From the NCBI GenBank assembly GCA_964407685.1, contig CAYOWI010000001.1, positions 34,169-98,168 of the forward strand: DNA of 64,000 nt, in the 5' to 3' direction. Below are positions 43,117-62,802 of the stretch, in pieces. The notes under the pieces are model-generated. The model had not been told where the DNA came from and did no database searches. It was given only the letters and a program-made list of their open reading frames with translations. This stretch comes from an uncultured Muribaculaceae bacterium (lineage in GTDB: Bacteria > Bacillota_I > Bacilli_A > RF39 > UBA660). Every line of letters begins with the position of its first letter. Position 1 is the first letter of the stretch. The position numbers were made by a program, and so were the translations under genes.

Positions 43117-43128
43117 GGAAGTGTTAAA

Positions 43129-44394: not shown

Positions 44395-44409
44395 GGAGTA
44401 TTAAAGTGT

Positions 44410-47584: not shown

Positions 47585-47594
47585 ATAAAATTAT

Positions 47595-48149
47595 TTATTT
47601 ATCTAATCCCTTTTCTTTATTAAATTTATCCCATATATAGTTTATCACTGATTCATGATTTGGATATAATCCGTCTTCATTAATTATTTTTCTATTATTT
47701 ACGTATTGGTTAAAAGTACTAATTATTTTGGCAGGATTACCTCCTACAACACTATTATCAGGAACATCTTTAGTTACTATAGAACCCGCTGCAATAATAA
47801 CGTTATTTCCAATTTTAACGTTTGGCAATATAGTTACGTTACATCCGATAAATACATTATTTCCAATCTTTATTGGTGCACAGTTATAATAAAATTTAAA
47901 ATCATAGTTCATTTTATTTAATACTTTATCAATTACATCATGTGTTACAAAGGTAACTCCAGATGCCACAACAACGTTATTTCCAAAACTAATTAATTTA
48001 GGTTCATCTGGTATTATCCTTGGTTGAAAAAAGAAGTTTTCACCTACATGTTTAAATATATTATTTTTAATTAGTATTTTAGTCCTTTTATTAGCGTTTG
48101 GTATTAAATACATTTTAAGTTTTGTACTATATTTCATGTTGTCCTCCAA
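47595..48149 (-). CDS. Maltose/galactoside O-acetyltransferase-like hexapeptide-repeat acetyltransferase
   Basis: [46 protein letters not shown]. Confidence 0.75.
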
Positions 48150-48313
48150 TATATTAATATTATAACATTTGTTTGATAAAAAATCATTTAATATGTTATT
48201 TTTTGTTTTTTTTAAGTGATTTCAAAAGATATGTAGAATAATAAAAATGAGAGAACCTAATAATGGGTAGTTACTTTCCATCTTTTTTAAAAGAATAAAA
48301 GGGTGGTGATATT

Positions 48314-48394
48314 ATGAAAAGGGAGAATAAGTTTCTTAAAGTAATAATCTTTCTTTTGATTTTAATAATAATCATACTAATATTTAAAATATAA
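48314..48394 (+). CDS. 26-aa hydrophobic peptide MKRENKFLKVIIFLLILIIIILIFKI (copy 1): candidate type I toxin-like or small membrane peptide
   Basis: Ribosome-binding site at 7-nt spacing. Charged N-terminus plus a single TM segment. Terminator immediately downstream. Confidence 0.4.
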   Translation: MKRENKFLKVIIFLLILIIIILIFKI

Positions 48395-48648
48395 AAGAAA
48401 AAGTACAACTACCCAAAGGGGGTATTGTACTTTTTCCTATTTTACAAATAGGAAAGTAACTAACCTTAAGTTAGGTTCTTTCACTAACTAAATTATACAA
48501 AAATATTTATTTTATGTAAATAAAAAGTTTAAATATTATATTTTTTTAAAGTGATTTTAAAAGATATGTAGAATAATAAAAATGAGAGAACCTAATAATG
48601 GGTAGTTACTTTCCATCTTTTTTAAAAGAATAAAAGGGTGGTGATATT

Positions 48649-48729
48649 ATGAAAAGGGAGAATAAGTTTCTTAAAGTAATAATCTTTCTTTTGATTTTAA
48701 TAATAATCATACTAATATTTAAAATATAA
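48649..48729 (+). CDS. 26-aa hydrophobic peptide (copy 2, identical peptide)
   Basis: Same as copy 1. Confidence 0.4.
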   Translation: MKRENKFLKVIIFLLILIIIILIFKI

Positions 48730-48864
48730 AAGAAAAAGTACAACTACCCAAAGGGGTTATTGTACTTTTTCCTATTTTGCAAATAGGAAAGCAACTAACC
48801 TTAAGTTAGGTTCTTTCATTAATTAAATTATACAAAAAATAAACTAATATGTAAATAATTACAA

Positions 48865-50490
48865 CTAATGTTTGTAAAATCCTTTTCCTATTTGTGTACT
48901 TTGGTATGGATTGTTTATTGAAAATGAAAATTCTTTGTCCATCTCTGGTTTTTTTAATTCCAAGTTTATTTTCATTGCATCAGTTATTTCTTTTAAACTT
49001 TCCTTATAATATTCGAAATAATAAATATTATTTATGTAATTATCATATCCTGATAGGTATAACCTTTGCGTTCCTATGAAATCATCATTATGGATGTTTT
49101 TTGAGTTAAAGATTATGTTTTTAAAAGTATCAAATCCTGTTATCATGGTATCTTTTTCAATGTTAGTATCAATGTTATCTCCGACTATATCTAATATGTC
49201 ATATATTTGAGATAAACTCTTAATACTTTTTAGTTTGTTCATAATTGCATTTACTATTTGTTGTTGATTTTGTCCCCTTATAAAATCATTACTATTATAA
49301 TTAGAGTATTTTTTTCCACAGTATGCTGGCCATGGATGACGATTTCTTGCGAAGGCTAAGGTTTGTTCACCATTTAAAGTCTGCATGCCTTTTTCTAAAT
49401 ATATAGTGTTATTACCAAATCTTCTTTTTGAATCACTTTCACAAAAAGCATATGGTATGTCAACTTCTATTCCACCTAGGGCGTTTACTAGTGATATTAC
49501 ACCTTGAAAGTTTATTTTAGCCCAATAATCAATTTCTATTCCGGTAAAATTAGTTATTGTATCCATTACGCAATCAGCACCATATAATGCAGCGGAATTT
49601 ATCTTATTTTTTGATTTGTTTTTGGTGCAAACAATTGGAACCCTGGTATCCCTTGGAATGCTAAGAATAGTAGCATTCATGGTGTTAGGATTAAAGGTAA
49701 TTAGCATTAACGTGTCACCGTTAAATGAGTTGCTTTTTGATAGGGAACTAGAACTTGAATCAACTCCCATAAGAAGAATAGTAAAAGGCTTATCTAAAGT
49801 TTTACCATTTTCAGTTTTTTTATTTGTGGTCTTCTTGCTTTTTTCTAAGATAACTTTTGTTTCACTGGCGATATTTTCAAAACCTTCTTCGTTTGCGAAT
49901 AAAGATACGTAAGAAGAACTAACAAACATTGCGTCTATTTTATTATTATATAAATCAGTTAACATTTCATTATAATTATCATAAGTTGCTAAATTTTCTT
50001 TATTAATGTTTTTTTCTTTTACCATTTCCATGGCAATGGTATAACCTTCTATGTTTGCTTTATCATTAATTATTCCTATTTTACCTTTTTGCAAGTTAGA
50101 AGCCAAGTTAAATGGTGATTCCTTTAAAACTATTAAACTAGTTGAATAGCCAGTTTCACTCTTGGTTATTTTTGATAGTGAATTACTTATTTTATTAATG
50201 TTAATTGAGATAAATAACTCTAACGTGATAAAAATAGCGATAATAATAAAATACCAAACGTAGCTTTTTGTCTTATTTTTTTTGATACATCTAAGACCAG
50301 TATAAGTAAATAAAACTAAAAGCAATGCCGTTAAAATAATTATTCCGTAAACTACGTAGGTCATAAAGCTCTTTGATGAATTATAATAATATATTTCATT
50401 TGTGAAATAAGCGCTTGAAGCGTAGTAAGCTATCAAAAATAAAAATACAAAAATAGACGCTTTCTTAAATTTCTTTTTTTTATTTTCCAA
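48865..50490 (-). CDS. LCP (LytR-CpsA-Psr) family protein, second copy
   Basis: N-terminal TM helices, then LCP core ILLMGVDSS...GDTLMLITFNPNTMNATILSIPRDT...AKINFQGVISLVNALGGIEVD. Confidence 0.8.
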   Translation of the reverse strand: MENKKKKFKKASIFVFLFLIAYYASSAYFTNEIYYYNSSKSFMTYVVYGIIILTALLLVLFTYTGLRCIKKNKTKSYVWYFIIIAIFITLELFISININKISNSLSKITKSETGYSTSLIVLKESPFNLASNLQKGKIGIINDKANIEGYTIAMEMVKEKNINKENLATYDNYNEMLTDLYNNKIDAMFVSSSYVSLFANEEGFENIASETKVILEKSKKTTNKKTENGKTLDKPFTILLMGVDSSSSSLSKSNSFNGDTLMLITFNPNTMNATILSIPRDTRVPIVCTKNKSKNKINSAALYGADCVMDTITNFTGIEIDYWAKINFQGVISLVNALGGIEVDIPYAFCESDSKRRFGNNTIYLEKGMQTLNGEQTLAFARNRHPWPAYCGKKYSNYNSNDFIRGQNQQQIVNAIMNKLKSIKSLSQIYDILDIVGDNIDTNIEKDTMITGFDTFKNIIFNSKNIHNDDFIGTQRLYLSGYDNYINNIYYFEYYKESLKEITDAMKINLELKKPEMDKEFSFSINNPYQSTQIGKGFYKH

Positions 50491-50710
50491 AATATCACCT
50501 CAAATACCTTGTAATTATACAACAAAATGCTACAAAAAACAACGCTGCTTCAAGTGGATGTTAAATATCTATTTATATGATGCTTTTAAAATAAAAGAAT
50601 ATTCTAAAATCTTTTGACGAAAGTTTACATATTTAAACAAAATTATATATTATATTTCATTATAGGACTAATTTCTATGTTATAATTAATTAAGAATAGG
50701 AGTTGGTCAT

Positions 50711-52486
50711 ATGAAGATATTTAGTAATAAAAAGAATCTATTACTTACTTTTACGATAGTTTTCTCATGCTTTATGATGTTACCAAAACTAAATGCTGCC
50801 TCATATGACGTATATACTGTAAAAAGCTCTATGGGTAAAAAGGATTGCCCGATAAGAACAGGTCCAGGAACTAATAAAGAAATTATTAAAAATGGAAATG
50901 ATAACGTTTATGTCTATGCGAATCAACAATTAGAATATATTAAAACAATGACAGGTCCAAATGGTGGTAAAAATGCCAATTGGTACGCGGTTAAATTTGA
51001 TTATGCTGCAAGGGAATATACTGGATATGTAGTAGAGGCTTGCGTTAATAAGACTACTTATTCGTATAATGATGATGATTCATTTGAGCAAAGTATAAAA
51101 GACTTTCCGGATAGTTATAAGCCGTATTTAAGGAAACTTCATGCTATTCATCCTAATTGGTCTTTTTCGATAGATAACACTAATCTTGATTGGAATGATT
51201 CGGTGACCGCAGAAAGCAGAATTAATCAAAGTGCTATTTCGCATCTTTATCCATCTTTGTTTTATAAAGATGAACAAAACCCTAATGGTATAGTAGTGGA
51301 TGGTACTAGTTGGTATGCCCCTTGTTATGATGCCGTGGGTTATTATTTAGATCCAAGAAATTTTTTAAATGAAAAGAATATATTTATGTTTGAAAGCTTA
51401 TTATATAATCCAGCACAAGATAATTCTGTACAAGGAATATTAAATGGCAGCTTCATGGCTAAAACATTTACGGAAAATGGTTATGATAAGACTTATTCTG
51501 AGGCTTTTATAGAAGCCGCTAAGGAGTCGGGCGTAAGTTCTACACACTTAGCATCACGTGCATTACAAGAAATGGGTGTAACAATGTCATCGGCAGCAAG
51601 CGGAACCGTTCCAGGTTATGAAGGATATTATAACTTTTATAACATTGGTGCATACTCTGGAGTAAACAATTATATAAACGGATTAGAATATGCAAAAAAA
51701 GAAGGATGGAATAGTATTCAAAAGGCAATAACCGGTGGGGCTAAGTTCATAAGCGATAAGTATGTTAACAATGGAAAAGATACTTTATATTTTCAAAAGT
51801 TTAACGTATCTTCAGATAGAAAAACCGCACCTTATACATACGAATATATGACTAACATAATGGCTCCATCATCTGAATCAGCAAGTATATATAATTCTTA
51901 TAAGAACAATGGAAAACTAAATGATGCTTACGCTTTTAAAATCCCAGTTTATAATAATATGACTGCTAACGCATATAAAGTGTCCAGAACGGATACCGTA
52001 GGGGGAAAAGAAGAGGATAATGGCGGTAATACCGAAAATAAACCAACTGAGCCAGAAACTCCAAAAGTAAGTGTTGAAACTAAAATCTCTAACGCTGGTT
52101 ATTTACTTTTGGACGGTTATTTAACAAAAATTAATATTGGTGAAGACATGAGTTTATTAAGACAAAAGTTAACTAATCAAGGGGCTTTAGTTGCAAGTTT
52201 AAATAGTTCATGGAATTCTAAAACGTCTGGTAAGGTTGCAACCGGAGATATAATAGAAGTAGATAAAACAAAAAGATATGAAGTAGTTGTTTATGGTGAT
52301 ATAGATGGTGATGCGGATGTATCAGTTGTAGATTTATTATATTTAAAAAAATATATATTAGGTGATATGAATTTAAATTCTGCTAATAAAAAAGCGGCAG
52401 ACATATCAAAAGATGGAAAAGTAGATGTTGTTGATCTATTACTATTAAAAAAACATATTTTAGGTGAGTATACCATTATTCAATAG
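50711..52486 (+). CDS. Secreted SH3b + GH73-like N-acetylglucosaminidase with C-terminal type I dockerin
   Basis: Signal peptide. SH3b-like segment (...NWYAVKFDY...GYVVEACV). Glucosaminidase-like GYYNFYNIGAY. Dockerin duplicated Ca-binding segments DIDGDADVSVVDLLYLKKYILG and DISKDGKVDVVDLLLLKKHILG. Confidence 0.6.
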   Translation: MKIFSNKKNLLLTFTIVFSCFMMLPKLNAASYDVYTVKSSMGKKDCPIRTGPGTNKEIIKNGNDNVYVYANQQLEYIKTMTGPNGGKNANWYAVKFDYAAREYTGYVVEACVNKTTYSYNDDDSFEQSIKDFPDSYKPYLRKLHAIHPNWSFSIDNTNLDWNDSVTAESRINQSAISHLYPSLFYKDEQNPNGIVVDGTSWYAPCYDAVGYYLDPRNFLNEKNIFMFESLLYNPAQDNSVQGILNGSFMAKTFTENGYDKTYSEAFIEAAKESGVSSTHLASRALQEMGVTMSSAASGTVPGYEGYYNFYNIGAYSGVNNYINGLEYAKKEGWNSIQKAITGGAKFISDKYVNNGKDTLYFQKFNVSSDRKTAPYTYEYMTNIMAPSSESASIYNSYKNNGKLNDAYAFKIPVYNNMTANAYKVSRTDTVGGKEEDNGGNTENKPTEPETPKVSVETKISNAGYLLLDGYLTKINIGEDMSLLRQKLTNQGALVASLNSSWNSKTSGKVATGDIIEVDKTKRYEVVVYGDIDGDADVSVVDLLYLKKYILGDMNLNSANKKAADISKDGKVDVVDLLLLKKHILGEYTIIQ

Positions 52487-52495
52487 GAGGATGAA

Positions 52496-54016
52496 ATGAA
52501 GAATAAAACTAAAAAAATATTAGTAGGAGCATTAGTTCTCTTTCTTGCTTTTATTATAAAACTGCCAAGTACTTTTGCAGCATGTAGCATTAGTGTATCA
52601 TCTACTAGTAACGTAGTGGTTGGAAATACTTTTAAAGTAACTACCACGGTTTCATCTGACGTTGGTTCTTGGTATTATGTGCTTGGTTATGATCCTTCAA
52701 AGGTACAACTTATAAGAGGCAACGTAAAAGTAGTTGGTGTAATAGGAGATAGTAAAACTAATACATATACTTTTAAGGCTTTAAAATCGGGAGTAGCTAC
52801 GTTTAGTACCACTAACGTATCACTTGCAAGTAACAGCACTAACGCTCAGTGCTCACCTAGTACTGGCAAGGCATCGGTTACGATGAAAACACAGGCTGAA
52901 ATAGAAGCTAGTTATAGTAAAAACAATAATTTAAGTTCACTTTCGGTAGAAGGAGCAGAGCTTTCACCGGCTTTTAATAAAGATGTTACCGAGTATTCTG
53001 CTAGCTTACCAGTTGATACTACAAAAGCTAAAGTGCTTGCAACAGCCGAAGATAAAACAGCTTCGATTTCGGGTGCTGGTGAAATAGATGTTGTAGATGG
53101 TATAAATAAGTTAGAAGTTACCGTTACCGCTCAACATGGAGAAAAAAAGACCTATGTAATAAATTTAACGGTTGAAGAACTTGACCCGATATCCGTAACA
53201 GTTAATAATAAGAAGTACACCATAGTAAGAAAGCCTGGGCAGATAGAAAATATTCCGGTTGGGTTTGTTGAAAGTAAGATAAATATACAAAATCAAGAGA
53301 TAACGGTATATAAAAGCGAAGTTACAAAATTAACGTTAGTAGCACTAAAGGATGAAGAAGGAAACATTGGTTTATTTATTTATAATCCATCAAATAAAAC
53401 GTTTAAAGAGTTTAAAGAAGTTAAAGCAAGTTCTGCAAACTTAATAGTGTTAAATGAAAAAAATGTTGATGTTCCAGATGACTTTGAAAGAACTACTTTT
53501 GATTATAATGAAATAAAAATAGAAGGATATAAGTTTAAAAAGGATAATGAAAATAGATACTTCTTAGTTTATGCTCAAAATCTTGAGAACGGAACAACTG
53601 GTTTTTACTTATATGATAGTAGGGAAGGTACTTTTCAAAAGTATTATAATAACATTGTTAATTTTAAAAATAATGCCATAAAAACAAGAGAATATATAAT
53701 AATTGGTTTTATAGTACTATTCGTATTTATGATGTTAATTAAGTTATTAAAATTATTTTCCTCAAAAGAGGCTAAAATAAGAAAATATGAAAATAAAATT
53801 AAAAAATTAAAAAATGAAACTTCAAAAGAAGATTATTATGACATTGATGAAGTATTAGTAAAGGAAGAACCAGTAATAAAAAAAGTCGAAGACGACGAAT
53901 ATGTTGTTCCTAAAAAAACAAGAAAACAGAAAATAAAGGAAATAGAAGAAGCTAAGAAAAAGCTTGATAAGACAAAACCGGCTTTTAGAAGAGTATCTTT
54001 AGAAGATGATGAGTAG
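52496..54016 (+). CDS. Membrane-anchored surface protein: signal peptide, cohesin-like N-domain, cadherin-like beta-sandwich, TM, K/E-rich cytoplasmic tail
   Basis: Cohesin-like pattern (VVVGNTFKVTTTVSS...YVLGYDPSKVQLIRG...YTFKALKSGVATFS). Cadherin-like beta-sandwich (LSSLSVEGAELSPAFNKDVTEYSASLPV...). TM IIIGFIVLFVFMMLIKLL. Confidence 0.45.
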   Translation: MKNKTKKILVGALVLFLAFIIKLPSTFAACSISVSSTSNVVVGNTFKVTTTVSSDVGSWYYVLGYDPSKVQLIRGNVKVVGVIGDSKTNTYTFKALKSGVATFSTTNVSLASNSTNAQCSPSTGKASVTMKTQAEIEASYSKNNNLSSLSVEGAELSPAFNKDVTEYSASLPVDTTKAKVLATAEDKTASISGAGEIDVVDGINKLEVTVTAQHGEKKTYVINLTVEELDPISVTVNNKKYTIVRKPGQIENIPVGFVESKINIQNQEITVYKSEVTKLTLVALKDEEGNIGLFIYNPSNKTFKEFKEVKASSANLIVLNEKNVDVPDDFERTTFDYNEIKIEGYKFKKDNENRYFLVYAQNLENGTTGFYLYDSREGTFQKYYNNIVNFKNNAIKTREYIIIGFIVLFVFMMLIKLLKLFSSKEAKIRKYENKIKKLKNETSKEDYYDIDEVLVKEEPVIKKVEDDEYVVPKKTRKQKIKEIEEAKKKLDKTKPAFRRVSLEDDE

Positions 54017-54042
54017 GAAACCAATTATTGGTTTCTTTTTTT
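54017..54042 (+). terminator. Intrinsic terminator GAAACCAATTATTGGTTTC + T7
   Basis: Perfect 8-bp stem and T-run directly after the stop codon. Confidence 0.65.
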
Positions 54043-54130
54043 CTACAATTTTTTTGAAAATAGTCTATACAATAAATGACCAAAAATAAAGGACAAATAT
54101 AAGAACTATTTTAATGAAATAAAAAATTTT

Positions 54131-54392
54131 ATGTAGATTTAGTTTTATTTAATTATAATTTAAACTCTTTTGTAATATTAGAATTAAAACTTGATAAAGC
54201 AAAATATAAAGATGTTCATCAAGTACTTTTATATCGTGATATAATTGATAAAACGATATAAAAAGATTTTCATAACAAAACTATTGCAATATTAGTATCA
54301 AAAGAAAACGATAAATTTATATTAGAATACGTAAGTGATATGGAAGTATTTTTATCTACTTATGAATTTTATAATACTATAAATAATATATA
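54131..54392 (+). pseudogene. C-terminal fragment of a DUF1016/YhcG-like gene (copy 2 of 4) with internal stops
   Basis: ...NKTIAILVSKENDKFILEYVSDMEVFLSTYEF aligns with the C-terminus of the 18709-19605 copy (NKTIGVIISKKDNMFIIEYASDKRIFNSMYVL). Confidence 0.45.
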
Positions 54393-54423
54393 ATTTATGC
54401 TATAATTTAATTAGGAGAATTTT

Positions 54424-54894
54424 ATGAAAAAAGTAATGTTTATATCAAGCATGGGTGGGCATTTGACCGAGCTTATGCAACTTAAGGGGATTTTTAAAGA
54501 TTATGATTATAAAATAGTGACGGAAAAACACAAATCTACGATTGGACTTAAGGCAAGGTATAAAAGTAAGATAGATTATCTTTTAACCGGAAATAAAGAT
54601 CATATGTTAAGATATTTATTTGTTATTCCGTATAACATTATTAAAAGTTTAATAATATTTTTAAAATTTAAACCAGATGTTATTGTTACAACGGGAGCTC
54701 ATACGTGCGTTGCTATGTGTTATATAGCAAAAATATTTAGAAAAAAAATAATATATATAGAATCATTTGCAAATATAGAAACAAAAACACTTACTGGAAG
54801 ATTGGTTTATCCGATAGCAGATGTATTTGTTGTACAGTGGCATTCGATGCTTAAGTTATATCCAAAAGCTAAGTATGAAGGGTGGATATTTTAA
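54424..54894 (+). CDS. Alg14-like glycosyltransferase membrane-anchoring subunit (Cps14F/PssD-like)
   Basis: About 150 aa, MFISSMGGHLTELMQL, with the typical pairing to a downstream Alg13-like gene. Confidence 0.7.
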   Translation: MKKVMFISSMGGHLTELMQLKGIFKDYDYKIVTEKHKSTIGLKARYKSKIDYLLTGNKDHMLRYLFVIPYNIIKSLIIFLKFKPDVIVTTGAHTCVAMCYIAKIFRKKIIYIESFANIETKTLTGRLVYPIADVFVVQWHSMLKLYPKAKYEGWIF

Positions 54895-55373
54895 TGATAT
54901 TGGTATTATTAGGAACGCAAGATAAACCATTTGAAAGGATTTTAAAGGCGGTAGAAAAAGAAATTGAAAAAGGTAATATAAAGGATAAGGTAATTGCACA
55001 AACTGGTTATACTTCTTTTGAAAATAAAATAATTAAGACGTTTGACTTTGCGCCAAAAGAAGAGATAGAAAGCCTAATTGAAAAGGCTAAAATAATAATT
55101 ACTCATGCTGGCGTAGGTAATATAACCGATTGTATTAGTAAGCAAAAAAAAGTAATAGTTGTACCAAGATTAAAGAAGTATGGTGAACATACTAATGATC
55201 ATCAATTACAAATAACAAAAGAATTTGCTATGAAAAATTATGTGTTACCACTTTATGATACTAAAAATTTAGCTAAGGTTTTAGAAAAAATCAATGGTTT
55301 TAAACCGGAAAAGTATGAATCTAATACAGAAAAATTTAAATTAAAAATAAAAGATTACATAGACAATATTTGA
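54894..55373 (+). CDS. Alg13-like GT28 C-terminal-domain glycosyltransferase (Cps14G/PssE-like)
   Basis: TAATG overlap with the upstream gene. LGTQDKPFERIL...ITHAGVGNI motif. Confidence 0.7.
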   Translation: MILVLLGTQDKPFERILKAVEKEIEKGNIKDKVIAQTGYTSFENKIIKTFDFAPKEEIESLIEKAKIIITHAGVGNITDCISKQKKVIVVPRLKKYGEHTNDHQLQITKEFAMKNYVLPLYDTKNLAKVLEKINGFKPEKYESNTEKFKLKIKDYIDNI

Positions 55374-55462
55374 TTTGTCTTTTTCTTTACATTTTTTTTA
55401 CCTATGATAGCCGATTTTTTGACGATTTATCTAGCTTTTAGTATAATTAAGTTGGTGATGAT

Positions 55463-56590
55463 ATGAAAAAAGTAACTATATTAGCTCTCCATTTAGGTTA
55501 TGGAGGAATAGAAAATGCTATAACAACGCTAGCTAATACCTTAGTTTCTAAATATAATGTTGAAATATTAAGCGTATACAGATTATATAATGAACCTGTA
55601 TATAAGTTAGATGAAAAGGTAAAAGTTAGTTATATATCTAATATTAAACCAAATAAAAAAGAAATGATGTATTATTTAAAAAAGAAAAATTTTAATATGT
55701 TTTTTAAAGGAATTGGTCATAGTATTAAAACTGGTTTTGTTAAATATATAAAGACACCAGCTGTTTTAAGAAAAATCAATACAGATGTTATTATTTCAAC
55801 TAGAACTGTTCATAATTTTTTAATATCGAAATTCGTAAGTAATGATATAAAAAAAATAGCGTGGGAGCATAATCATCATAATGATAAGAAAAAATATATT
55901 AATTCGCTTGTAAAGTCTTGTAAGAACGTTAATAACCTTGTTTTAGTCTCTAGTGAGTTATCCTTATTTTATAAAAAATATTTAGGAGATAAAGTAGTTT
56001 ATATTCCTAATTGTTTAGATAAAATGCCTAATAAACTATCTAAATTAGATTCTAAAAACTTAGTTGCGGTTGGAAGGCTGTCAAAAGAAAAAGGCTTTGA
56101 TGATTTGCTTAAGTTATTTAAAAAGATTAGTATAAAACATCCGGACTGGAAATTAAACATTGTTGGCGATGGCATGGAAAAAAATGACCTTCTTGATTTA
56201 GCTAAGGAATTAAAGCTTGGTGATAAAGTTGTTTTTCATGGATATCAAAATAAAGATTACATTAACAATCTTTTGCAAGAAAGTTCAATTTACGTAATGA
56301 CATCTCATACGGAAAGTTTTGGTCTTGTATTAATAGAAGCTATGAGTTATGGGGTTCCTTGTTTATCATACACCTCGGCACAAGGTGCTAATGAAATTAT
56401 CGATGATGGTCAAAATGGATATTTAATTAAAAATAGAAGTGAAGAAGAAATGATATCTAAAATAGAATTATTAATTGAAGATGATAAGTTAAGAAATAAG
56501 TTTGGAAAAAACGCCCGTGCTAAATCAAAGAATTATAGTAATGAAGTTATTTTAGAAAAATGGCAAAAATTAATAAATAAAAGAAAGTAG
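55463..56590 (+). CDS. Glycosyltransferase family 4
   Basis: GT-B fold. C-terminal ESFGLVLIEAMSYGVPCLSY. Confidence 0.8.
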   Translation: MKKVTILALHLGYGGIENAITTLANTLVSKYNVEILSVYRLYNEPVYKLDEKVKVSYISNIKPNKKEMMYYLKKKNFNMFFKGIGHSIKTGFVKYIKTPAVLRKINTDVIISTRTVHNFLISKFVSNDIKKIAWEHNHHNDKKKYINSLVKSCKNVNNLVLVSSELSLFYKKYLGDKVVYIPNCLDKMPNKLSKLDSKNLVAVGRLSKEKGFDDLLKLFKKISIKHPDWKLNIVGDGMEKNDLLDLAKELKLGDKVVFHGYQNKDYINNLLQESSIYVMTSHTESFGLVLIEAMSYGVPCLSYTSAQGANEIIDDGQNGYLIKNRSEEEMISKIELLIEDDKLRNKFGKNARAKSKNYSNEVILEKWQKLINKRK

Positions 56591-56599
56591 GAGAGTATT

Positions 56600-57493
56600 A
56601 TGCAATTATCAGTTATTGTTCCGATGTTTAATGAAGCATCTACTTTAGATGAGTTTTGTAAATCGGTTACCGAAGCTTTAAAAAAAGAAAAGATAACGTA
56701 TGAGTTAATCATGGTTGATGATGGTAGCAGTGATGATACAATGGAAAAACTAAAAAGCATCACCATGGAAAATAAAAATATTAAGGTAATTAGTTTTTCT
56801 AGAAACTTCGGAAAAGAATCAGCGATGCTAGCGGGATTAGAGCATGCTAGTGGTAAATACGTAGCAATAATGGACGCTGACTTGCAACATACACCAGAGG
56901 TTTTAATAAGTATGTATAATAAACTAATCCAAAATCCAGAGTATGACGTTGTTTCTTCTTATAAAGAATCGAGAAATACTGAAGCGCCTTTCAAGAGGAC
57001 TTTAACTTCAATTTTTTATAGAATAAATAACATGTTATCTGATGTTAAGCTTCTTCCAGGGGCTAGTGACTTTAGGGTGGTTAAATCATGTGTTAAGGAT
57101 GCTATTATTTCTATGCCGGAAAAAACAAGATTTTTAAAAGGAATTTTTTCTTGGGTAGGTTTTAATACAATATACGTTCCTTATACTCCAGAAAAAAGAA
57201 TGTATGGCTCTTCAAAATGGTCTATATTTAAGCTTATTAAGTATTCTTTAGGTGGAATTATATCATTTTCAACAAAACCAGTTAAGAGCGTTTTTGTAGT
57301 AGGGTTTTTATCTTTTATAATTTGTCTTACTAACTTTATATTAATGGGAAATTTATCCCATAGAACAATAATATTATTAATTGGCACTCTTTTATTATGT
57401 GTTGGTATAATAGCCCTTTACATATCAAGAATATACAGTAACATACTTAATAGACCATGTTATATAATAAAACAAAAAATCGGATTAAATTAA
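56600..57493 (+). CDS. GtrB/CsbB-like GT2 with C-terminal TM helices (second copy)
   Basis: VIVPMFNE...MVDDGSSDDT, DADLQH and two C-terminal TM helices. Confidence 0.8.
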   Translation: MQLSVIVPMFNEASTLDEFCKSVTEALKKEKITYELIMVDDGSSDDTMEKLKSITMENKNIKVISFSRNFGKESAMLAGLEHASGKYVAIMDADLQHTPEVLISMYNKLIQNPEYDVVSSYKESRNTEAPFKRTLTSIFYRINNMLSDVKLLPGASDFRVVKSCVKDAIISMPEKTRFLKGIFSWVGFNTIYVPYTPEKRMYGSSKWSIFKLIKYSLGGIISFSTKPVKSVFVVGFLSFIICLTNFILMGNLSHRTIILLIGTLLLCVGIIALYISRIYSNILNRPCYIIKQKIGLN

Positions 57494-57559: not shown

Positions 57560-58690
57560 ATGAATGACAAGATAATTGTGGTATTAAAAATAGTTTTGTC
57601 GGTAATGTGTGTAACAAGTTTGTTTTTCCCAATTGTAAAATGGATAGCAAACCATGTTAACGCACTTGATTATCCTAACGAAAGAAAGGTTCATAAAAAA
57701 CCAATGCCTTTATTAGGCGGTCTTATGATGTTTTTTGGCTTTTTATTCGGGTACATGTTTTTTGCACCTCAAAACACTCAAATGCTTGCCATATTAATGG
57801 CTGGATTTATTGTTATTTTAACCGGTATGATTGATGATATAAAGCCTTTAAAGGCGAGGGAAAAGTTAATAGGACAAATAATAGCAGCGTTAATCGTAAC
57901 TTTTTATGGAAATATTTTGCTTAATGATATAACATTTTTTGGCTTTTACTTTGATTTTGGACCACTTGCTTACCCACTTACCATAGTATTTATAATTGCA
58001 CTTATGAACTGTATTAATTTTATTGATGGTTTAGATGGATTAGCTTGCGGTATTTCTACTATTTTTTTCGCAACTATAGGTGTTATTGCTTTTATTTTAC
58101 ATAACATAGGAAGTCTTGAGATAACCATTACGTTTATAATGCTTGGTGCATGTTTAGGATTCTTAATTTTTAATTTCAATCCCGCTAAAATATTTATGGG
58201 TGAAACTGGATCTATGTTTCTAGGCTTTATGATAGCGGTTGTTTGTTTAATGGGATTTAAGGCTGTTACTTTAACTTCGCTTGTTGTGCCAATGCTTATT
58301 TTAGCTATTCCAATACTTGATACTTTATTTGCAATAATTAGAAGGATAATTCATAAAAAACCTATTTATATTGCTGATAAACAGCACTTACATCACCAGT
58401 TATTAAATAAAAAATTTAGTCAAAAAACAACGGTTTTAATAATATATGCGGTAAGTATTTTGTTTTCTTTGGCATCAATATTTTATGTTTTAAAAGATAG
58501 AAAATATGGAATAATAATATATACCATTATAATGATTTTAATAACTTGGATAATATTATCTACTGATATATTAACTGATAAAGCTAAAATACACATAAAA
58601 ATGCCTAACGTAATAAAAAAACATACGAAAAAGAAAGCAACTGTTAAAAATGATAAACAAATAAAAAAAGACTATATAAATAAAAAATAG
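57560..58690 (+). CDS. MraY-family UDP-GlcNAc:undecaprenyl-phosphate GlcNAc-1-phosphate transferase (TagO/WecA-like)
   Basis: Polytopic protein. Motifs VHKKPMPLLGGL and NFIDGLDGLA. Confidence 0.85.
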   Translation: MNDKIIVVLKIVLSVMCVTSLFFPIVKWIANHVNALDYPNERKVHKKPMPLLGGLMMFFGFLFGYMFFAPQNTQMLAILMAGFIVILTGMIDDIKPLKAREKLIGQIIAALIVTFYGNILLNDITFFGFYFDFGPLAYPLTIVFIIALMNCINFIDGLDGLACGISTIFFATIGVIAFILHNIGSLEITITFIMLGACLGFLIFNFNPAKIFMGETGSMFLGFMIAVVCLMGFKAVTLTSLVVPMLILAIPILDTLFAIIRRIIHKKPIYIADKQHLHHQLLNKKFSQKTTVLIIYAVSILFSLASIFYVLKDRKYGIIIYTIIMILITWIILSTDILTDKAKIHIKMPNVIKKHTKKKATVKNDKQIKKDYINKK

Positions 58691-58764: not shown

Positions 58765-58793
58765 TTGACTTTTTGAATAAAATATGGTATATT
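58765..58793 (+). promoter_or_regulatory. Near-consensus sigma-A promoter TTGACT-17-TATATT driving the ncRNA
   Basis: Seen in sequence. Predicted transcription start near 58800. Confidence 0.5.
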
Positions 58794-58799
58794 GTTTAG

Positions 58800-59400
58800 C
58801 CGTGGAGCAGTATTCTAGTTTGAATTGCACTATGAGGACGGGCCTAAAAATCCGTTAAAGAGCATACCTGTGAAACGTCTTGTGCTTGCTTCTTTCGCCC
58901 AGATTGGGGTGAGTGCTGGATATGAGTTTGCTGGGCTAGCTGTAATGGCATACAGATTATCAAGACCCATCAATACGCGGAGACTTAAGTGCGTGCAAGG
59001 CGTAGGACTTTGTACGGCTTGAGATTAAACCTACTATGTGGCTTGCGCTATGAGTAGTGTAGCTTGCCTTGAGTGAGGGTATTGGGAAGAAGGATCAGGT
59101 CTTTTCATCTAGGCATAGATTAAGGACTATTGCCTTCTGAAATTTCCCTTGCAAAAAAGAGCTAGTAGTGATTTGTTCATTTGAAGAAATTTCCTAGACT
59201 GTGACTTTCATGGAATTGCAGTGCGTACTAAGTGGTAATCAAGTAATGCTTGTCGCAAGGAAGCATGCCTTTTCTTAAATGGGAACGGCCGGATGGTAAC
59301 AGAAGGTGAAAAGGTGGGAAATCCAACTTGACCTAAGACGCAAAGTTTGTCATGAAAGATTCCACGCTATTTTAATTGTACTTATGTACAATCTTTTTTT
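58800..59400 (+). ncRNA. ~600-nt structured non-coding RNA candidate (OLE-like or ROOL-like large ornate RNA; class not confirmed)
   Basis: Local GC ~43% against ~27% background. No credible ORF. Own promoter and intrinsic terminator. Many locally self-complementary GC-rich segments. Followed by a 4-TM ~22 kDa protein gene. Confidence 0.55.
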
Positions 59401-59403
59401 TTT
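59374..59403 (+). terminator. Intrinsic terminator ATTGTAC-TTAT-GTACAAT + T10
   Basis: Seen in sequence at the 3' end of the GC-rich block. Confidence 0.6.
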
Positions 59404-59442
59404 GTGATATTATTATCTTATATGATAGTAGGAGGTAGGCAT

Positions 59443-60018
59443 ATGTACGATACCAATTCTAAAATAAAGTTTTATAGTTTAGGAAGTGAAAAAATAGACT
59501 TTTCTAAAATAACAAATAATGAGCAGTTAGATTCATCTAAGCCGGTAATAGCCTCTAAAGGTTTTAATAAGGCTTTAAAAAGTGTAATAGATAAAGATAT
59601 TGCGTTTTTATCAGATAAAGTAAAAAGTATAATTATGGAAATACAAAAAATTCTTGTTACAAATGGGTTCGTAGATGAAATGATAAGTGATAAGATAGAA
59701 AATATAGATGATATAGTAAACGAAGTGGAAGTTATTATAAGTAAAGTTATAATTGAAAAAGAAAGTATCAAGTTTAATTTATTTAGTACTAATAAAAAGC
59801 AGAAAAAACAAAGATATAAAAAATTAGAAGAATCAGTTGAAGCTTTATCAAGATATCAAACAGAACTAATTTCAATAAAAAATGAATATGATAAATTAGC
59901 GCAAAGAAAAATGGTTTTAAAAGATACCATATTTGATGATGATAATACTGAAACTACTAAAGAAGATCCTTTGGAGAGGACCATTAATTTTTACATGAGC
60001 AAGCAAAAAGAAATTTAA
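59443..60018 (+). CDS. Hypothetical soluble coiled-coil protein (191 aa)
   Basis: AGGAGG ribosome-binding site. K/E-rich helical sequence. No recognised domain. Confidence 0.5.
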   Translation: MYDTNSKIKFYSLGSEKIDFSKITNNEQLDSSKPVIASKGFNKALKSVIDKDIAFLSDKVKSIIMEIQKILVTNGFVDEMISDKIENIDDIVNEVEVIISKVIIEKESIKFNLFSTNKKQKKQRYKKLEESVEALSRYQTELISIKNEYDKLAQRKMVLKDTIFDDDNTETTKEDPLERTINFYMSKQKEI

Positions 60019-60047
60019 TATTTCTTTTATTTTCTACGGAGGTTTTG

Positions 60048-60641
60048 ATGAAGATTAAGTCTTTTAATGAAAAATATGAAAAAAAGGTAAAAAAAATAGA
60101 TAAAATTCCTAAGAAGTTTGTTGATTACAAATGGGTGGTAACAATAACGATTTGTGCTTTTTTTATATCATTATTATTTTCTAGTTTAACCGATGCTATG
60201 ATATCACACCTAAACGCTATCATTGGTATTGTTATAGTTTTTTTAATTATTATTGTAGGTGTTATGTTTGATATGATTGGTGTTGCCGTAACCGCCGCGT
60301 CTATAAAACCCTTTAACTCCATGGCATCTAAGAAAATAAGGGGAAGTAAAACCGCTATTTTTTTAATACGCAATGCTTCTCGGGTTTCGGCGTTTTGCAA
60401 TGATGTTGTAGGGGATGTATGTGGTATAATTTCTGGTTCGGTTGGAATTCTTATTTCATCAGAGATTGCTTTAGAATTTAACTTTAATACTGGATTTGTA
60501 AGTCTTATTTTAACCGCTCTTATCGCTGCTTTTACGATTGGTGGAAAAGCAATGGCAAAGAGTTATGCAATCAATAAAAGTGACGTAATAGTTTTTAGGT
60601 TTGCTAAGATAGTTAGTTTTTTTAAAGGGGAGGTAAAATAA
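60048..60641 (+). CDS. Four-TM small membrane protein (~22 kDa), candidate OapA-like ncRNA partner
   Basis: ACGGAGG ribosome-binding site. Four predicted TM helices. Lies immediately downstream of the ncRNA. Confidence 0.55.
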   Translation: MKIKSFNEKYEKKVKKIDKIPKKFVDYKWVVTITICAFFISLLFSSLTDAMISHLNAIIGIVIVFLIIIVGVMFDMIGVAVTAASIKPFNSMASKKIRGSKTAIFLIRNASRVSAFCNDVVGDVCGIISGSVGILISSEIALEFNFNTGFVSLILTALIAAFTIGGKAMAKSYAINKSDVIVFRFAKIVSFFKGEVK

Positions 60642-60643
60642 AA

Positions 60644-61642
60644 ATGAAAGTTTTGTTATATTCGGAAGGTCTAAAGACGATTGGAAAATCAGGACTTGGA
60701 AAAGCTATTAAACATCAAATGAAAGCGTTAGAATATGAAAAGATAAGTTATACTTTAAATCCTAATGATGATTATGATATTTTACATATTAATACTTATT
60801 TTCCAAAATCTTACTTTTTTGCGAAGAAAGCTAAAAAAATGGGTAAAAAAATAGTTTATCATGCACATTCTACAGAGGAAGATTATAAAAATGGTTTTAT
60901 CTTTGCAAAGCAAACGTCTAAATTATTTAAAAAATGGCTTATCAAATGTTATAGCTTAGGAGATGTAATAGTAACACCTACGCCATATTCAAAAAAACTT
61001 TTAAAAGGATATAAAGGTTTAGAAGATAAAACCATATATGATGTATCTAACGGTATTGAACTTGAGTTTTTTAAAAAGGATAAAAAGCTTGGAGAAAAGT
61101 TTCGTAAGACTTATGGATATACTAAAGATGATAAGGTTATATTTGGGATAGGGTTATATATAGAGAGAAAAGGAATTACCGACTTTGTAGAACTTGCAAA
61201 AAGATTACCACAATATAAATTTATATGGTTTGGTTATAGCCCTTTAGCTGCTACTACAAAAAAGGTTAGAAAAGCTGTGAATACAAAGTTAGATAATTTA
61301 ACGTTTGCAGGCTACGTAGAACCAGATGTAATAAAGGGGGCTATGAATGGTGGCGATTTATATCTTTTCCCAACGCTTGAGGAAACAGAGGGAATTCCTA
61401 TTATTGAAGCCTGTGCATGTAAAAAAGATGCTATTGTAAGAGATATCCCAATCTTTGATGATTGGCTTACCAACGAAGTAAACGTATATAAGGCAAAAGA
61501 CTTAGATGATTTTGAAAAAAAGATAAAAATGTTTTTTTCAGGTAAGCTTCCTAGTGTTGCAGAAAAATCTTATGAAGTTGCTAAAGAAAGAGACTTAAAG
61601 AAAATTGGCAAAAAATTAAAGAAAATATATGAGAGCTTATAA
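60644..61642 (+). CDS. Glycosyltransferase family 4 (possibly a glycolipid/diglucosyl-diacylglycerol-type synthase)
   Basis: GT-B fold. C-terminal EETEGIPIIEACACKK (E-x7-E-like). Confidence 0.65.
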   Translation: MKVLLYSEGLKTIGKSGLGKAIKHQMKALEYEKISYTLNPNDDYDILHINTYFPKSYFFAKKAKKMGKKIVYHAHSTEEDYKNGFIFAKQTSKLFKKWLIKCYSLGDVIVTPTPYSKKLLKGYKGLEDKTIYDVSNGIELEFFKKDKKLGEKFRKTYGYTKDDKVIFGIGLYIERKGITDFVELAKRLPQYKFIWFGYSPLAATTKKVRKAVNTKLDNLTFAGYVEPDVIKGAMNGGDLYLFPTLEETEGIPIIEACACKKDAIVRDIPIFDDWLTNEVNVYKAKDLDDFEKKIKMFFSGKLPSVAEKSYEVAKERDLKKIGKKLKKIYESL

Positions 61643-61791: not shown

Positions 61792-62802
61792 ATGTTACAA
61801 AAAATTAATATGAAAATGATTGAAGAAATAAAAGATGTAATTACAAGTAGCAGAAATAAAATAGCTTATGAAGTAAATAATACGATGCTGCTAGCGTATT
61901 GGAATGTTGGTAGAATTATTGTGGAAAATGAACAAAATGGAAATATTAAAGCCGAATATGGCAAAAAAGTTTTAAAAGAGCTTTCAAAAGAATTACGGAA
62001 AATTTTAGGATCAGGTTTTTCAGTATCGAATCTTCAATATATGCGTAGATTTTATCTAAAATATCAAAAACAACAGACACTGTCTGTTAAATTGAGCTAG
62101 TCACATTATTGTGAGCTATTAAGCATTGAAAATGATGATGAAAGATGTTTTTATGAAAGGGAATGTATAAATTCTAACTGGAGTGTTAGGGAATTAAAAA
62201 GACAATTAGAAACATCATTATTTGAAAGATTATTATTATCTAATGGAAAAAATAATAAAAAGAAAATTTATGAATTATCAAAAGTTGGACAAACAATGGC
62301 AAAACCTAATGATATTTTAAAAGAACCATATGTTTTTTAATTTTTAGGTATTAAAGAAACTAAACCTATTCTTGAAAAAGACTTAGAAAGAAAATTAGTA
62401 AAACACATGGAAGAGTTTTTGTTAGAATTGGGTAAAGGGTTTATGTTTATTGGTATTCAGCAAAGAATAACTCTTGGAAATACTCATTATTATGTAGATA
62501 TGGTTTTTTATAATAAGATTTTAAAATGCTATGTTTTAATTGACTTAAAAATAGGAGGGATGAAACCAGAATATGCTGGTCAAATGAATATGTATTTAAA
62601 TTATTATACTGAAGAGATTAATGATGAATTTGATAATAAACCGATCGGTATTATACTTTGTAAAAGTAAAAAAGAAGTTGCTATGGAATATGCTTTAGGA
62701 GGATTATCAAATAACGTTTTTGCATCAACTTATACTTATTATATTCCAAATAAATATGAGTTAATTAAAGAAGTTGAGAAAGTTTTAAATGATAGTTATT
62801 AA
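61792..62802 (+). pseudogene. DUF1016/YhcG-like gene (copy 3 of 4) disrupted by in-frame TAG (62098) and TAA (62338)
   Basis: SVKLS*SHYCELLSIENDDE aligns with VADLTWSHYIILLSIENEDE of copy 1 (TGG to TAG at the W codon). C-terminal PD-(D/E)XK-like region YVLIDLKIGGMKPEYAGQMNMYLNYY. Confidence 0.6.

What the first reader, a model, noticed from the sequence alone, without database searches (positions are those of the whole stretch)
58765..60641. ~600-nt GC-enriched structured non-coding RNA with its own promoter and terminator, followed by a 4-TM ~22 kDa membrane protein (OLE/OapA-like arrangement)
Region 58800-59400 has ~43% GC in a ~27% GC genome. It has no credible ORF and a near-consensus TTGACT-17-TATATT promoter placing the start near 58800. 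A clean intrinsic terminator sits at 59374-59403. Internal GC-rich self-complementary segments are abundant. The size and genomic behaviour fit the large ornate RNAs of Firmicutes (OLE ~600 nt, ROOL ~580 nt). The second gene downstream encodes a 198-aa protein with four TM helices. That is the size and topology reported for OapA, the membrane partner encoded immediately 3' of OLE RNA. The upstream context (tagO rather than ispA/dxs) is atypical for OLE, so this may be a divergent member or a different large RNA class.
Basis: partly seen in the sequence, partly recalled or inferred. Interest (0 to 1): 0.75.

Follow-up and report, generated by a model that had tools for sequence, protein, structure and literature searches.

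The report
OLE RNA gene with split oapA partner
The GC-rich non-coding stretch is a textbook full-length OLE RNA, a known large membrane-associated bacterial RNA, with its known membrane partner gene oapA nearby; the only unusual points are an extra small gene wedged between the two and a cell-envelope gene neighbourhood.

Summary
Rfam's OLE model (RF01071) matches window 58786..59381 (+) end to end at 374 bits against a cut-off of 50 (E 2.5e-106). It is the only Rfam hit in the 64 kb. The promoter (58765..58793) and the terminator (59374..59403) are both present and are conserved in nine related uncultured gut Bacilli genomes. No reading frame stays open across the RNA.

The 197-aa protein at 60048..60641 is OapA. 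It has four hydrophobic helices, the DxxxD motif and a weak CNNM match. Its best structural match is CorB 7M1U, as published for H. halodurans OapA. Its homologues sit directly 3' of OLE in about 60 of 75 loci from other species.

Three things are unusual but minor:
- A 191-aa helical protein with no known family, ORF-X (59443..60018), separates ole from oapA in this clade only. Related genomes keep ORF-X in the same glycosyltransferase cluster but lack both ole and oapA, so ORF-X does not depend on OLE.
- The locus lies inside a teichoic-acid and glycolipid gene island.
- The P9.3 kissing loop is a non-palindromic GGCA.

Verdict: a known system, correctly recognised. Interest is low to moderate.

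The parts
58765..58793 (+). Sigma-70-type promoter of ole: TTGACT, 17-nt spacer, TG-extended TATATT. The predicted transcription start is near 58798-58801.
   Evidence: 10/12 match with TG. (conserved in all 9 clade members, while upstream sequence is not alignable). The transcription start is inferred, not measured.
58786..59381 (+). OLE RNA gene, as the extent of the Rfam RF01071 match. The likely transcript runs from about 58800 to about 59403. P1 pairs 58801-58806 with 59361-59366.
   Evidence: 374 bits, E 2.5e-106, model positions 1-616 of 616. (RNAalifold on 16 OLEs: 160 pairs, 93 of them with compensatory changes). (no conserved reading frame).
59104..59117 (+). Apical loop of the long P9/P9.3 hairpin, reading UA-GGCA-UA. 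It is not palindromic, unlike the GGCC, AGCU or GUAC of other OLEs.
   Evidence: alignment of 75 OLEs. The loop is invariant in the 10 clade members and the stem below it covaries. PMC12286853 describes the palindromic loop as dimer bridge B3.
59374..59403 (+). Intrinsic terminator of ole: a 7-bp A/U-rich stem, a UUAU loop and U10. It is probably leaky.
   Evidence: -6.5 kcal/mol, z -7.7. (conserved; relatives have an 8-bp stem at -9.9 kcal/mol). The leakiness is inferred.
59385..59413 (+). Possible secondary promoter for orfX-oapA: TGTACA, 17-nt spacer, TG-TATTAT. It overlaps the descending arm of the terminator.
   Evidence: 9/12 match with TG. (the TGTGTTATTAT block after the T-run is conserved). 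This is weak evidence and the feature is hypothetical.
59443..60018 (+). ORF-X: a 191-aa, 22-kDa, acidic, all-helical soluble protein with no known family. Conserved motifs are KIKFYS, FNKAL..VI.KDI and a C-terminal DPLERTINFYM. The ribosome-binding site AGGAGG lies at 59430-59435.
   Evidence: no Pfam, NCBIfam or PHROG family. (81 clusters). (65 representatives among 1.84 billion). (alignment). (AF2 pLDDT 80.5, four helices). (no structural relatives).
60048..60641 (+). oapA: a 197-aa, 21.5-kDa, pI 9.8 membrane protein with four transmembrane helices and a CNNM-like fold. The DxxxD motif is DVVGD at residues 119-123. A basic loop spans residues 91-112.
60644..61642 (+). IagA/BgsA-type glycosyltransferase for the lipoteichoic-acid glycolipid anchor. 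Its start codon lies 3 nt after the oapA stop, so the two are probably co-transcribed. This gene is context, not part of the OLE RNP.
   Evidence: NF053513, 467 bits against a cut-off of 460.. Spacing read.
57560..58690 (+). TagO/WecA/MraY-family polyprenyl-phosphate sugar-phosphate transferase immediately upstream. This gene is context.
   Evidence: PF00953, 135 bits..

Best explanation
Window 58800-59403 encodes a genuine full-length OLE (ornate, large, extremophilic) RNA, and 60048-60641 encodes its obligate membrane partner OapA.

Shown here: the RNA matches the curated OLE covariance model end to end. Its helices are supported by compensatory changes. It has a conserved promoter and terminator of its own. 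The protein has the sequence, topology and fold features published for OapA.

Inferred from work on Halalkalibacterium halodurans and on Clostridium OLE RNAs: the RNA is abundant and dimerises. The conserved A-rich L4 loop and the L5/L6 loop sequences that mediate this are all present here. The dimer is held at the membrane by OapA dimers, which are CNNM-like and possibly Mg2+ transporters. The resulting ribonucleoprotein helps the cell cope with stresses such as excess Mg2+, alcohols, cold and poor carbon sources.

Local peculiarity: in this clade of uncultured gut Bacilli, ole and oapA are separated by one gene, orfX, and are embedded in a cell-envelope glycopolymer operon. The order is TagO-like transferase, ole, orfX, oapA, IagA/BgsA glycolipid transferase, then UppS further on. 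OapA is most likely expressed by read-through of the weak ole terminator or from a weak promoter that overlaps it, and it is co-transcribed with orfX and the glycolipid transferase. ORF-X is best read as a resident of the glycosyltransferase cluster and not as an OLE-dedicated subunit. It persists at the same position in relatives that have lost both ole and oapA.
For: - OLE identity: (RF01071, 374 bits against a gathering score of 50, E 2.5e-106, model 1-616/616, the only Rfam hit in the window). One search gives the same model at 347-374 bits in relatives L003, L005 and L085.
- Structure: (160 consensus pairs, 93 with compensatory double changes across 16 OLEs).
- Not coding.
- Promoter and terminator.
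- OapA sequence features: four hydrophobic segments, DVVGD matching DxxxD, basic loop; sub-threshold CNNM. PMC11332333 describes the same features for OapA.
- OapA gene position. OLE lies upstream on the same strand in 75 of 81 loci. The gap is 220 nt or less in about 60 of them, including Clostridium, Fictibacillus and Thermoclostridium.
- ORF-X distribution: (present only in the 7 closest genome loci). Searches give OLE-ORFX-OapA in L085, L086 and L093., together, give the same glycosyltransferase synteny without OLE or OapA in L082, L083, L084, L087, L089, L091 and L092.
- Envelope context.
- Mechanistic background: PMC12265935, PMC11332333, PMC12286853 and PMC7936274.
Against: - Nothing argues against the OLE and OapA identification.
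- No expression, localisation or phenotype data exist for this organism. All functional statements are transferred from H. halodurans and Clostridium.
- The P9.3 loop is GGCA and not a palindrome, so one of the three published dimer bridges may not form here.
- Whether this genome encodes OapB or OapC cannot be told from 64 kb.
- Neither terminator read-through nor the internal promoter has been demonstrated.
- The ORF-X tree is a neighbour-joining tree of a short protein with midpoint rooting, so the loss-versus-gain direction is only suggestive.
Confidence: 0.93

Rival explanations
1. ORF-X is a clade-specific additional subunit or adaptor of the OLE ribonucleoprotein. It would sit between ole and oapA because the three products act together, for example by linking the RNP to lipoteichoic-acid or glycolipid synthesis.
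For: The order ole-orfX-oapA is strictly conserved in every OLE-bearing member of the clade, across ORF-X identities from about 48% to 92%. Intergenic gaps are tight and the three genes are probably co-transcribed. ORF-X has strongly conserved motifs and no other assignable function. The literature explicitly leaves room for further membrane-associated partners (PMC12265935).
Against: ORF-X is retained at the same position in at least seven loci that have neither OLE nor OapA beside it (OLE absence). It therefore has an OLE-independent role. It has no transmembrane segment and no recognisable RNA-binding fold. It is absent from the roughly 65 other OLE loci examined.
Confidence: 0.12
2. The OLE copy is a decaying, non-functional remnant, or was recently acquired by horizontal transfer.
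For: ole and oapA have evidently been lost in sister lineages. PMC11332333 mentions rare defective OLE genes. The P9.3 palindrome is lost, and the small hairpin at model positions 424-435 is missing.
Against: The match is full length at 374 bits with all highly conserved blocks intact. Nine relatives score 347-374 bits or have equivalent nhmmer scores, with compensatory changes in stems. Promoter and terminator are conserved. oapA is intact and conserved. The missing hairpin is absent from all gut Bacilli MAG OLEs examined, so it is a lineage trait and not decay.
Confidence: 0.03
3. The region is a different large structured RNA (ROOL, GOLLD, raiA, RNase P, tmRNA or a group II intron), or it hides a protein-coding gene.
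Against: cmscan of the whole window against all 4227 Rfam families returns OLE alone. ARAGORN finds no tmRNA or tRNA. Every frame has 6-19 stops in each clade member.
Confidence: 0.01

Closest known systems
OLE RNA (Rfam RF01071), e.g. from Halalkalibacterium halodurans, Clostridium acetobutylicum and C. botulinum
   Same: Full-length match to the covariance model. All highly conserved sequence blocks are present. P7 and P8 are present, so this is the 'full-length' type. The A-rich L4 loop and the L5 GCCCA and L6 AAUGGCAU loops are conserved. The P13 GNRA loop (GCAA) with its single-nucleotide bulge, and the P14.1 GUAA loop, are present. The RNA is paired with oapA and the host belongs to Bacillota.
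   Different: The RNA has its own promoter and terminator, whereas in H. halodurans it lies within a processed polycistronic transcript. The L9.3 loop is GGCA, not a palindrome. The small hairpin after CCUAGACUGU (model 424-435) is absent, as in all gut Bacilli MAG OLEs examined. oapA is not the immediate 3' neighbour. The neighbourhood is teichoic-acid and glycolipid genes, not ispA/dxs.
OapA (OLE-associated protein A, BH2780 type)
   Same: About 200 aa with four transmembrane helices. It has the DxxxD motif, a basic cytoplasmic loop and weak CNNM/DUF21 similarity. Its best structural match is CorB 7M1U. Homologues lie directly 3' of OLE in most species.
   Different: Here it is separated from ole by orfX, and it is likely translationally and transcriptionally coupled to an IagA/BgsA glycolipid glycosyltransferase.
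MpfA/CorB/CorC CNNM-family Mg2+ transporters
   Different: There are no CBS or CorC_HlyC domains. OapA has four helices, not three. It has the DxxxD motif. The Pfam CNNM score is below the gathering threshold (23.7 against 28.4 bits).
OLE variants 1 and 2 of uncultured gut lineages (TANB77, RF39; PMC11332333)
   Same: The host is an uncultured gut member of Bacilli with low GC. Some neighbouring lineages in my locus set (L007, L023, L054) do show truncated P9 regions.
   Different: The window's OLE keeps P7, P8, a long P9 and the P13 OapB-site features, so it is not one of those reduced variants.
ROOL and GOLLD large ornate RNAs
   Same: Large, GC-enriched, highly structured non-coding RNAs of Bacillota and their phages.
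   Different: There is no match to their Rfam models. These RNAs are not associated with OapA.

Membership tests
OLE RNA (RF01071) | Scores above the curated gathering threshold of the OLE covariance model over its full length | tested here: met
   374 bits against 50, E 2.5e-106, model positions 1-616 of 616, not truncated.
OLE RNA (RF01071) | About 600 nt with many helices supported by covariation | tested here: met
   Promoter to terminator spans about 600 nt; 160 consensus pairs, 93 with compensatory changes in 16 sequences. This includes P1, which pairs the 5' and 3' ends.
OLE RNA (RF01071) | Highly conserved sequence blocks: GCAGUAUUCUAGU, CCUAAAAAUCC, GCCCAG, AAUGGCAU, CCUAGACUGU, ACUAAGUGGUAAUC, GGGAAAUCC and GACCUAAG | tested here: met
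   All are present in the cmscan alignment and in the alignment.
OLE RNA (RF01071) | Co-occurrence with an oapA gene, normally the immediate 3' neighbour | tested here: met
   oapA is at 60048..60641, on the same strand, 645 nt after the terminator. Co-occurrence is met, but immediate adjacency is not, because one gene intervenes.
OLE RNA (RF01071) | Dimer-bridge elements seen by cryo-EM: the A-rich L4 loop, complementary L5/L6 loops and a palindromic L9.3 kissing loop | tested here: inconclusive
   The L4, L5 and L6 sequences are conserved. L9.3 is GGCA and not palindromic, invariantly so in the clade. Dimerisation itself cannot be tested here.
OLE RNA (RF01071) | [quoted passage not shown] | tested here: met
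   The alignment shows the P13 loop GCAA with a bulged U. These criteria come from PMC7936274. Whether this genome has an oapB gene cannot be tested from the window.
OLE RNA (RF01071) | Host in Bacillota, typically an anaerobe or extremophile | tested here: met
   The closest loci are uncultured gut 'Bacilli', 'Mollicutes' or 'Tenericutes' MAGs from human, rabbit and other guts.
OLE RNA (RF01071) | High cellular abundance, membrane localisation and stress phenotypes on deletion | not testable with these tools
   These need RNA-seq, imaging or genetics in a cultured representative.
OapA | About 200 aa with four predicted transmembrane helices | tested here: met
   197 aa, with hydrophobic segments at about 27-47, 55-84, 117-142 and 146-170; long helices 27-52, 57-83, 110-144 and 148-176.
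OapA | DxxxD motif, stated to be distinctive of OapA versus CNNM domains (PMC11332333) | tested here: met
   DVVGD at residues 119-123. D119 and D123 are invariant in 32 homologues.
OapA | Distant CNNM/DUF21 similarity in sequence and structure, with best PDB match CorB 7M1U | tested here: met
OapA | Conserved cluster of basic residues on a cytoplasmic loop | tested here: met
   Residues 91-112, SMASKKIRGSKTAIFLIRNASR, contain 6 K/R. The cytoplasmic orientation is not tested.
OapA | Orthologues encoded directly downstream of ole across species | tested here: met
   OLE lies upstream on the same strand in 75 of 81 loci found with this protein. The gap is 220 nt or less in about 60.
OapA | Binds OLE RNA cooperatively and localises it to the membrane | not testable with these tools
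   This is a biochemical assay (Block et al. 2011, as cited in PMC12265935).
MpfA/CorB-type CNNM Mg2+ transporter (considered for the 197-aa protein) | A CNNM domain above the Pfam threshold, followed by tandem CBS and CorC_HlyC domains | tested here: not met
   CNNM is below threshold and no CBS or CorC domain is found. The protein is only 197 aa.

The most novel reading that the evidence does not exclude
In this clade of uncultured gut Bacilli the OLE ribonucleoprotein may be wired into lipoteichoic-acid and wall-glycopolymer synthesis. ole, orfX, oapA and the IagA/BgsA glycolipid-anchor glycosyltransferase would form one transcription unit between a TagO-like transferase and UppS. ORF-X would be a clade-specific adaptor. 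Other gut Bacilli MAGs also place cell-envelope genes between ole and oapA. If this is functional and not merely positional, it would be genomic support for the recent proposal that OLE RNA spans the membrane and senses or acts on the cell wall.
Probability: 0.15. Interest if true: 0.55.

Novelty: already known. Interest (0 to 1): 0.25.

Why it matters
OLE is one of the largest bacterial non-coding RNAs whose biochemical function remains unknown, so every well-resolved locus adds comparative data. This one adds little that is new. It is a standard Rfam-detectable OLE in a lineage, gut Bacilli MAGs, that has already been surveyed for OLE (PMC11332333).

Three modest points may interest specialists:
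- ole and oapA flank a retained gene and appear to have been lost together in sister lineages. This is a clean natural illustration of their mutual dependence.
- The recurrent embedding of ole and oapA among polyprenyl-phosphate-dependent envelope genes fits the published speculation that the RNP touches the cell wall.
- A whole clade has replaced the palindromic P9.3 kissing loop with GGCA. This bears on how essential that dimer bridge is.

Tried and rejected
1. Other RNA families. cmscan of the whole window against 4227 Rfam families found only OLE. ARAGORN found no tRNA or tmRNA.

2. Protein coding within the RNA. This is rejected.

3. Assigning ORF-X to a family. Pfam gave only a sub-threshold chance hit to Anticodon_2. 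NCBIfam gave none and PHROGs gave none. A PDB profile search gave only coiled-coil noise such as keratin, haemagglutinin HA2 and LSD1. Foldseek against the PDB gave nothing below E 0.5. An exhaustive profile search of 1.84 billion representatives found just 65 proteins, all of the same small family. The afdb50 library was unavailable.

4. ORF-X as an obligate OLE partner. This is rejected because of the OLE-less, OapA-less syntenic loci.

5. A degenerate OLE hiding in the 550-740-nt slot upstream of ORF-X in OLE-less relatives. This is rejected. There is no cmscan or nhmmer hit, GC is ordinary, and a 142-187-aa ORF occupies the slot.

6. Naming the organism. The exact proteins are held only in an unnamed NCBI contig of 123,719 bp and in Logan assemblies. 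The closest GTDB species representatives are 66-79% identical in OapA and are labelled only 'Bacilli bacterium' or 'Mollicutes bacterium'.

7. OapB or OapC in the window. A look at the larger intergenic gaps found nothing relevant. This was not a systematic search.
Full report
**Observation.**
- The 58850-59299 stretch has 42-46% GC, against 19-34% in the flanks.
- A TTGACT-17-TATATT promoter with an upstream TG lies at 58765-58793.
- A hairpin plus T10 lies at 59374-59403. The pattern scanner skipped it only because its stem has fewer than three G-C pairs. It folds at -6.5 kcal/mol, far better than shuffles (z -7.7).
- The longest ORF inside the stretch is 65 aa.
- The second gene downstream encodes a 197/198-aa protein with four hydrophobic segments.

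**Identity of the RNA.** A cmscan of the whole 64-kb window against all of Rfam 15 gives a single hit. It is RF01071 (OLE) at 58786..59381 on the + strand, with 374 bits against a gathering score of 50 and E 2.5e-106. It covers model positions 1-616 of 616.

All the strongly conserved OLE blocks are there. The only model element missing is a 4-bp hairpin at model positions 424-435. That hairpin is missing from every gut Bacilli MAG OLE I aligned and is present in Clostridia and Bacillaceae, so it is a lineage trait.

P7 and P8 are present. The RNA is therefore the 'full-length' type and not the reduced variants 1 and 2 that Fernando and Breaker describe for TANB77 and RF39 (PMC11332333).

An independent RNAalifold run was made on 16 OLEs: the window, eight clade members and seven distant ones. 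It recovers 160 pairs, of which 93 show compensatory double changes. They include P1, which pairs 58801-58806 with 59361-59366. No frame is open across the region in any of nine clade members, with 6-19 stops per frame, and the 65-aa ORF is not conserved.

**Transcription signals.** In nine clade members, the sequence upstream of the -35 hexamer cannot be aligned. From TTGAC(T/A) through the 17-nt spacer to TGnTATA it is conserved. This phylogenetic footprint is better evidence for the promoter than the motif match, which on its own is no more frequent than in shuffles.

The terminator hairpin and T-run are also conserved in all nine. The relatives mostly have a G-C closing pair and a stronger stem, at -9.9 kcal/mol. 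A block TGTGTTATTAT just after the T-run is conserved too, and it coincides with a weak promoter-like site at 59385-59413. I regard that site as hypothetical.

**Identity of the membrane protein.** The protein at 60048..60641 is 197 aa, 21.5 kDa and pI 9.8. It has four hydrophobic segments, a basic loop at residues 91-112, and DVVGD at 119-123. The DxxxD motif is stated to be distinctive of OapA relative to CNNM domains (PMC11332333). Both aspartates are invariant in 32 homologues.

The operational test is gene position. I searched 185,579 species genomes with this protein and kept the 80 best loci. nhmmer with the window's OLE finds an OLE upstream on the same strand in 75 of 81 loci held. 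The gap from OLE to the OapA homologue is 220 nt or less in about 60 of them, including named Clostridium, Fictibacillus and Thermoclostridium species. The protein is OapA.

**The gene in between.** ORF-X (59443..60018, 191 aa) has a good ribosome-binding site but no Pfam, NCBIfam or PHROG family. It has 81 relatives at the 90% cluster level and only 65 representatives among 1.84 billion in an exhaustive profile search.

It is acidic, lacks transmembrane segments, and is predicted to consist of four long helices (pLDDT 80.5). It has no significant structural neighbour. Conserved motifs include an invariant C-terminal DPLERTINFYM.

Among the 80 genome loci, only the seven closest to the window contain ORF-X, always in the order ole-orfX-oapA. 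Two more distant metagenomic relatives have the same order: P0158 at 53% identity and P0171 at 50%. OLE was confirmed in them.

Six other ORF-X relatives, at 42-48% identity, lie in the same syntenic cluster: GT1, GT2, TagO-like GT4, ORF-X, IagA/BgsA-like GT and UppS. They have neither OLE nor OapA. The slot upstream of ORF-X is either about 70-80 nt long or holds an unrelated 142-187-aa gene of ordinary GC content. No OLE signal was found in these loci.

On a neighbour-joining tree of ORF-X, the OLE-bearing loci are paraphyletic and the OLE-less ones form one clade plus one separate branch. The simplest reading is an ancestral ole-orfX-oapA arrangement, followed by joint loss of ole and oapA at least twice while orfX stayed. 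This fits the published observation that OLE and OapA are almost perfectly mutually inclusive (PMC11332333). It also argues that ORF-X has a job that does not need OLE. The tree is weak, since the protein is short and the rooting is by midpoint, so the direction of change is only suggestive.

**Context.** The 25 kb upstream encode the following:
- an LtaS-type sulfatase
- a PMT_2 protein
- an O-antigen-ligase-like protein
- YfhO
- a family 2 glycosyltransferase (GT2)
- an LCP protein
- Alg14/Alg13-like proteins
- a family 1 glycosyltransferase (GT1)
- a second GT2
- a TagO/WecA-like transferase

Immediately after oapA, with its start codon 3 nt past the stop, comes an IagA/BgsA-family glycolipid-anchor glycosyltransferase (467 bits against a cut-off of 460). 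UppS follows 2.5 kb further on. The OLE locus therefore sits inside a cell-envelope glycopolymer island.

Other gut Bacilli MAGs likewise have envelope genes between ole and oapA. Examples are a GT2 with EamA-type small membrane proteins, an LtaS-like sulfatase, polysaccharide deacetylases, or a small single-pass acidic protein. Cell-wall genes are already listed among ole-associated gene classes, and recent reviews speculate that OLE domain 2 reaches the wall (PMC12265935). I found no paper linking OLE to teichoic acid specifically.

**A detail of the RNA.** In most of the 75 aligned OLEs, the apical P9.3 loop holds a palindromic tetranucleotide: GGCC, AGCU or GUAC, and also GAGCUC or GGCGCC. 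This matches the symmetric kissing loop (bridge B3) of the cryo-EM dimer and its reported covariation (PMC12286853). In the window and in all nine other clade members in that alignment, the loop is an invariant UA-GGCA-UA, while the stem beneath it covaries. The L4, L5 and L6 elements of the other two bridges are conserved. Bridge B3 may therefore be weakened or replaced in this clade. I could not test that.

**Mechanism.** Two things are shown here. This is an OLE gene with its own conserved promoter and terminator, and a genuine oapA lies 645 nt downstream in the same orientation. The rest is inferred from H. halodurans and Clostridium work (PMC12265935, PMC11332333, PMC12286853, PMC7936274). 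On that basis the RNA folds, dimerises and is bound by OapA dimers at the membrane. It may also recruit OapB, since the P13 GNRA loop and bulge are intact. The particle would contribute to tolerance of Mg2+, alcohol, cold and carbon-source stress. My own inference is that oapA is expressed with orfX and the glycolipid transferase, either by read-through of the weak terminator or from the overlapping weak promoter.

**Verdict.** The system is already known and is detectable by routine annotation. The locus-specific features are worth a note to OLE specialists but do not change what kind of thing this is. Those features are the interposed ORF-X, the joint loss of ole and oapA in sister lineages, the envelope-gene context and the non-palindromic P9.3 loop.

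Noticed in passing
window 59104-59117; also L002-L006, L026, L069, L085, L086: The apical loop of the OLE P9.3 hairpin is an invariant, non-palindromic GGCA in this clade. Other OLEs have palindromes (GGCC, AGCU, GUAC), which form the symmetric kissing loop of the cryo-EM dimer. The stem below the loop covaries, so the hairpin itself is maintained.
   Followed up: partly
window 59443-60018; L082-L093: ORF-X is a narrow family: about 65 representatives in 1.84 billion proteins, with no known domain and an invariant C-terminal DPLERTINFYM. It always sits between a TagO-like GT4 and an IagA/BgsA-like glycosyltransferase, whether or not ole and oapA flank it. It is probably an uncharacterised cell-envelope factor.
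   Followed up: yes
L084 4463-4927, L087 4351-4905, L089 4503-4931, L092 3498-3926: In OLE-less relatives, the position that OLE occupies in the window holds a 142-187-aa hydrophilic protein gene. It has no Pfam hit and ordinary GC content, and it is not an OLE remnant.
   Followed up: partly
L050 5386-5964, L060 5587-5967, L029 5598-5942, L016 5826-6011, L017 5785-6042: Another group of gut Bacilli MAGs has a small protein encoded immediately upstream of oapA. It is acidic, of low complexity, and has a single transmembrane helix. It is unrelated to ORF-X and could be a different lineage-specific OapA companion.
   Followed up: no
L022 2927-5969, L029 2330-5547, L032 658-1899, L016 341-5760: In several Bacilli MAGs, ole and oapA are separated by 1.4-5.8 kb of mostly envelope-related genes. 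These include a GT2 with two EamA-type small membrane proteins, an LtaS-like sulfatase, polysaccharide deacetylases, an AMP-binding enzyme and a hybrid histidine kinase.
   Followed up: partly
window 59199-59204 region; Rfam model positions 424-435: The small hairpin after the conserved CCUAGACUGU is absent from all gut Bacilli MAG OLEs aligned. It is present in Clostridia and Bacillaceae.
   Followed up: yes
window 61792-62100 and 62407-62802: A DUF1016_N domain and a YhcG_C PDDEXK nuclease domain lie in two separate ORFs about 300 nt apart. Relatives (L084, L085) have one intact 294-311-aa gene. The window copy is probably a disrupted pseudogene.
   Followed up: partly
window 38945-57493: A large cell-envelope glycopolymer island lies upstream: an LtaS-type sulfatase, PMT_2, an O-antigen-ligase-like protein, YfhO, GT2, LCP (on the - strand), Alg14/Alg13-like proteins, GT1 and GT2. 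It also contains a 591-aa protein with a C-terminal dockerin type I domain (50711-52486), which is unusual for a Bacilli MAG.
   Followed up: no
window 21961-22552: Two small overlapping ORFs of 110 and 88 aa look like a HigB/HigA-type toxin-antitoxin pair. The second has a helix-turn-helix-like sequence. A 250-aa gene follows.
   Followed up: no
L089 9378-9535: A glmS ribozyme (RF00234, 63.9 bits) lies upstream of a glmS-like gene in a related MAG. This is ordinary.
   Followed up: no
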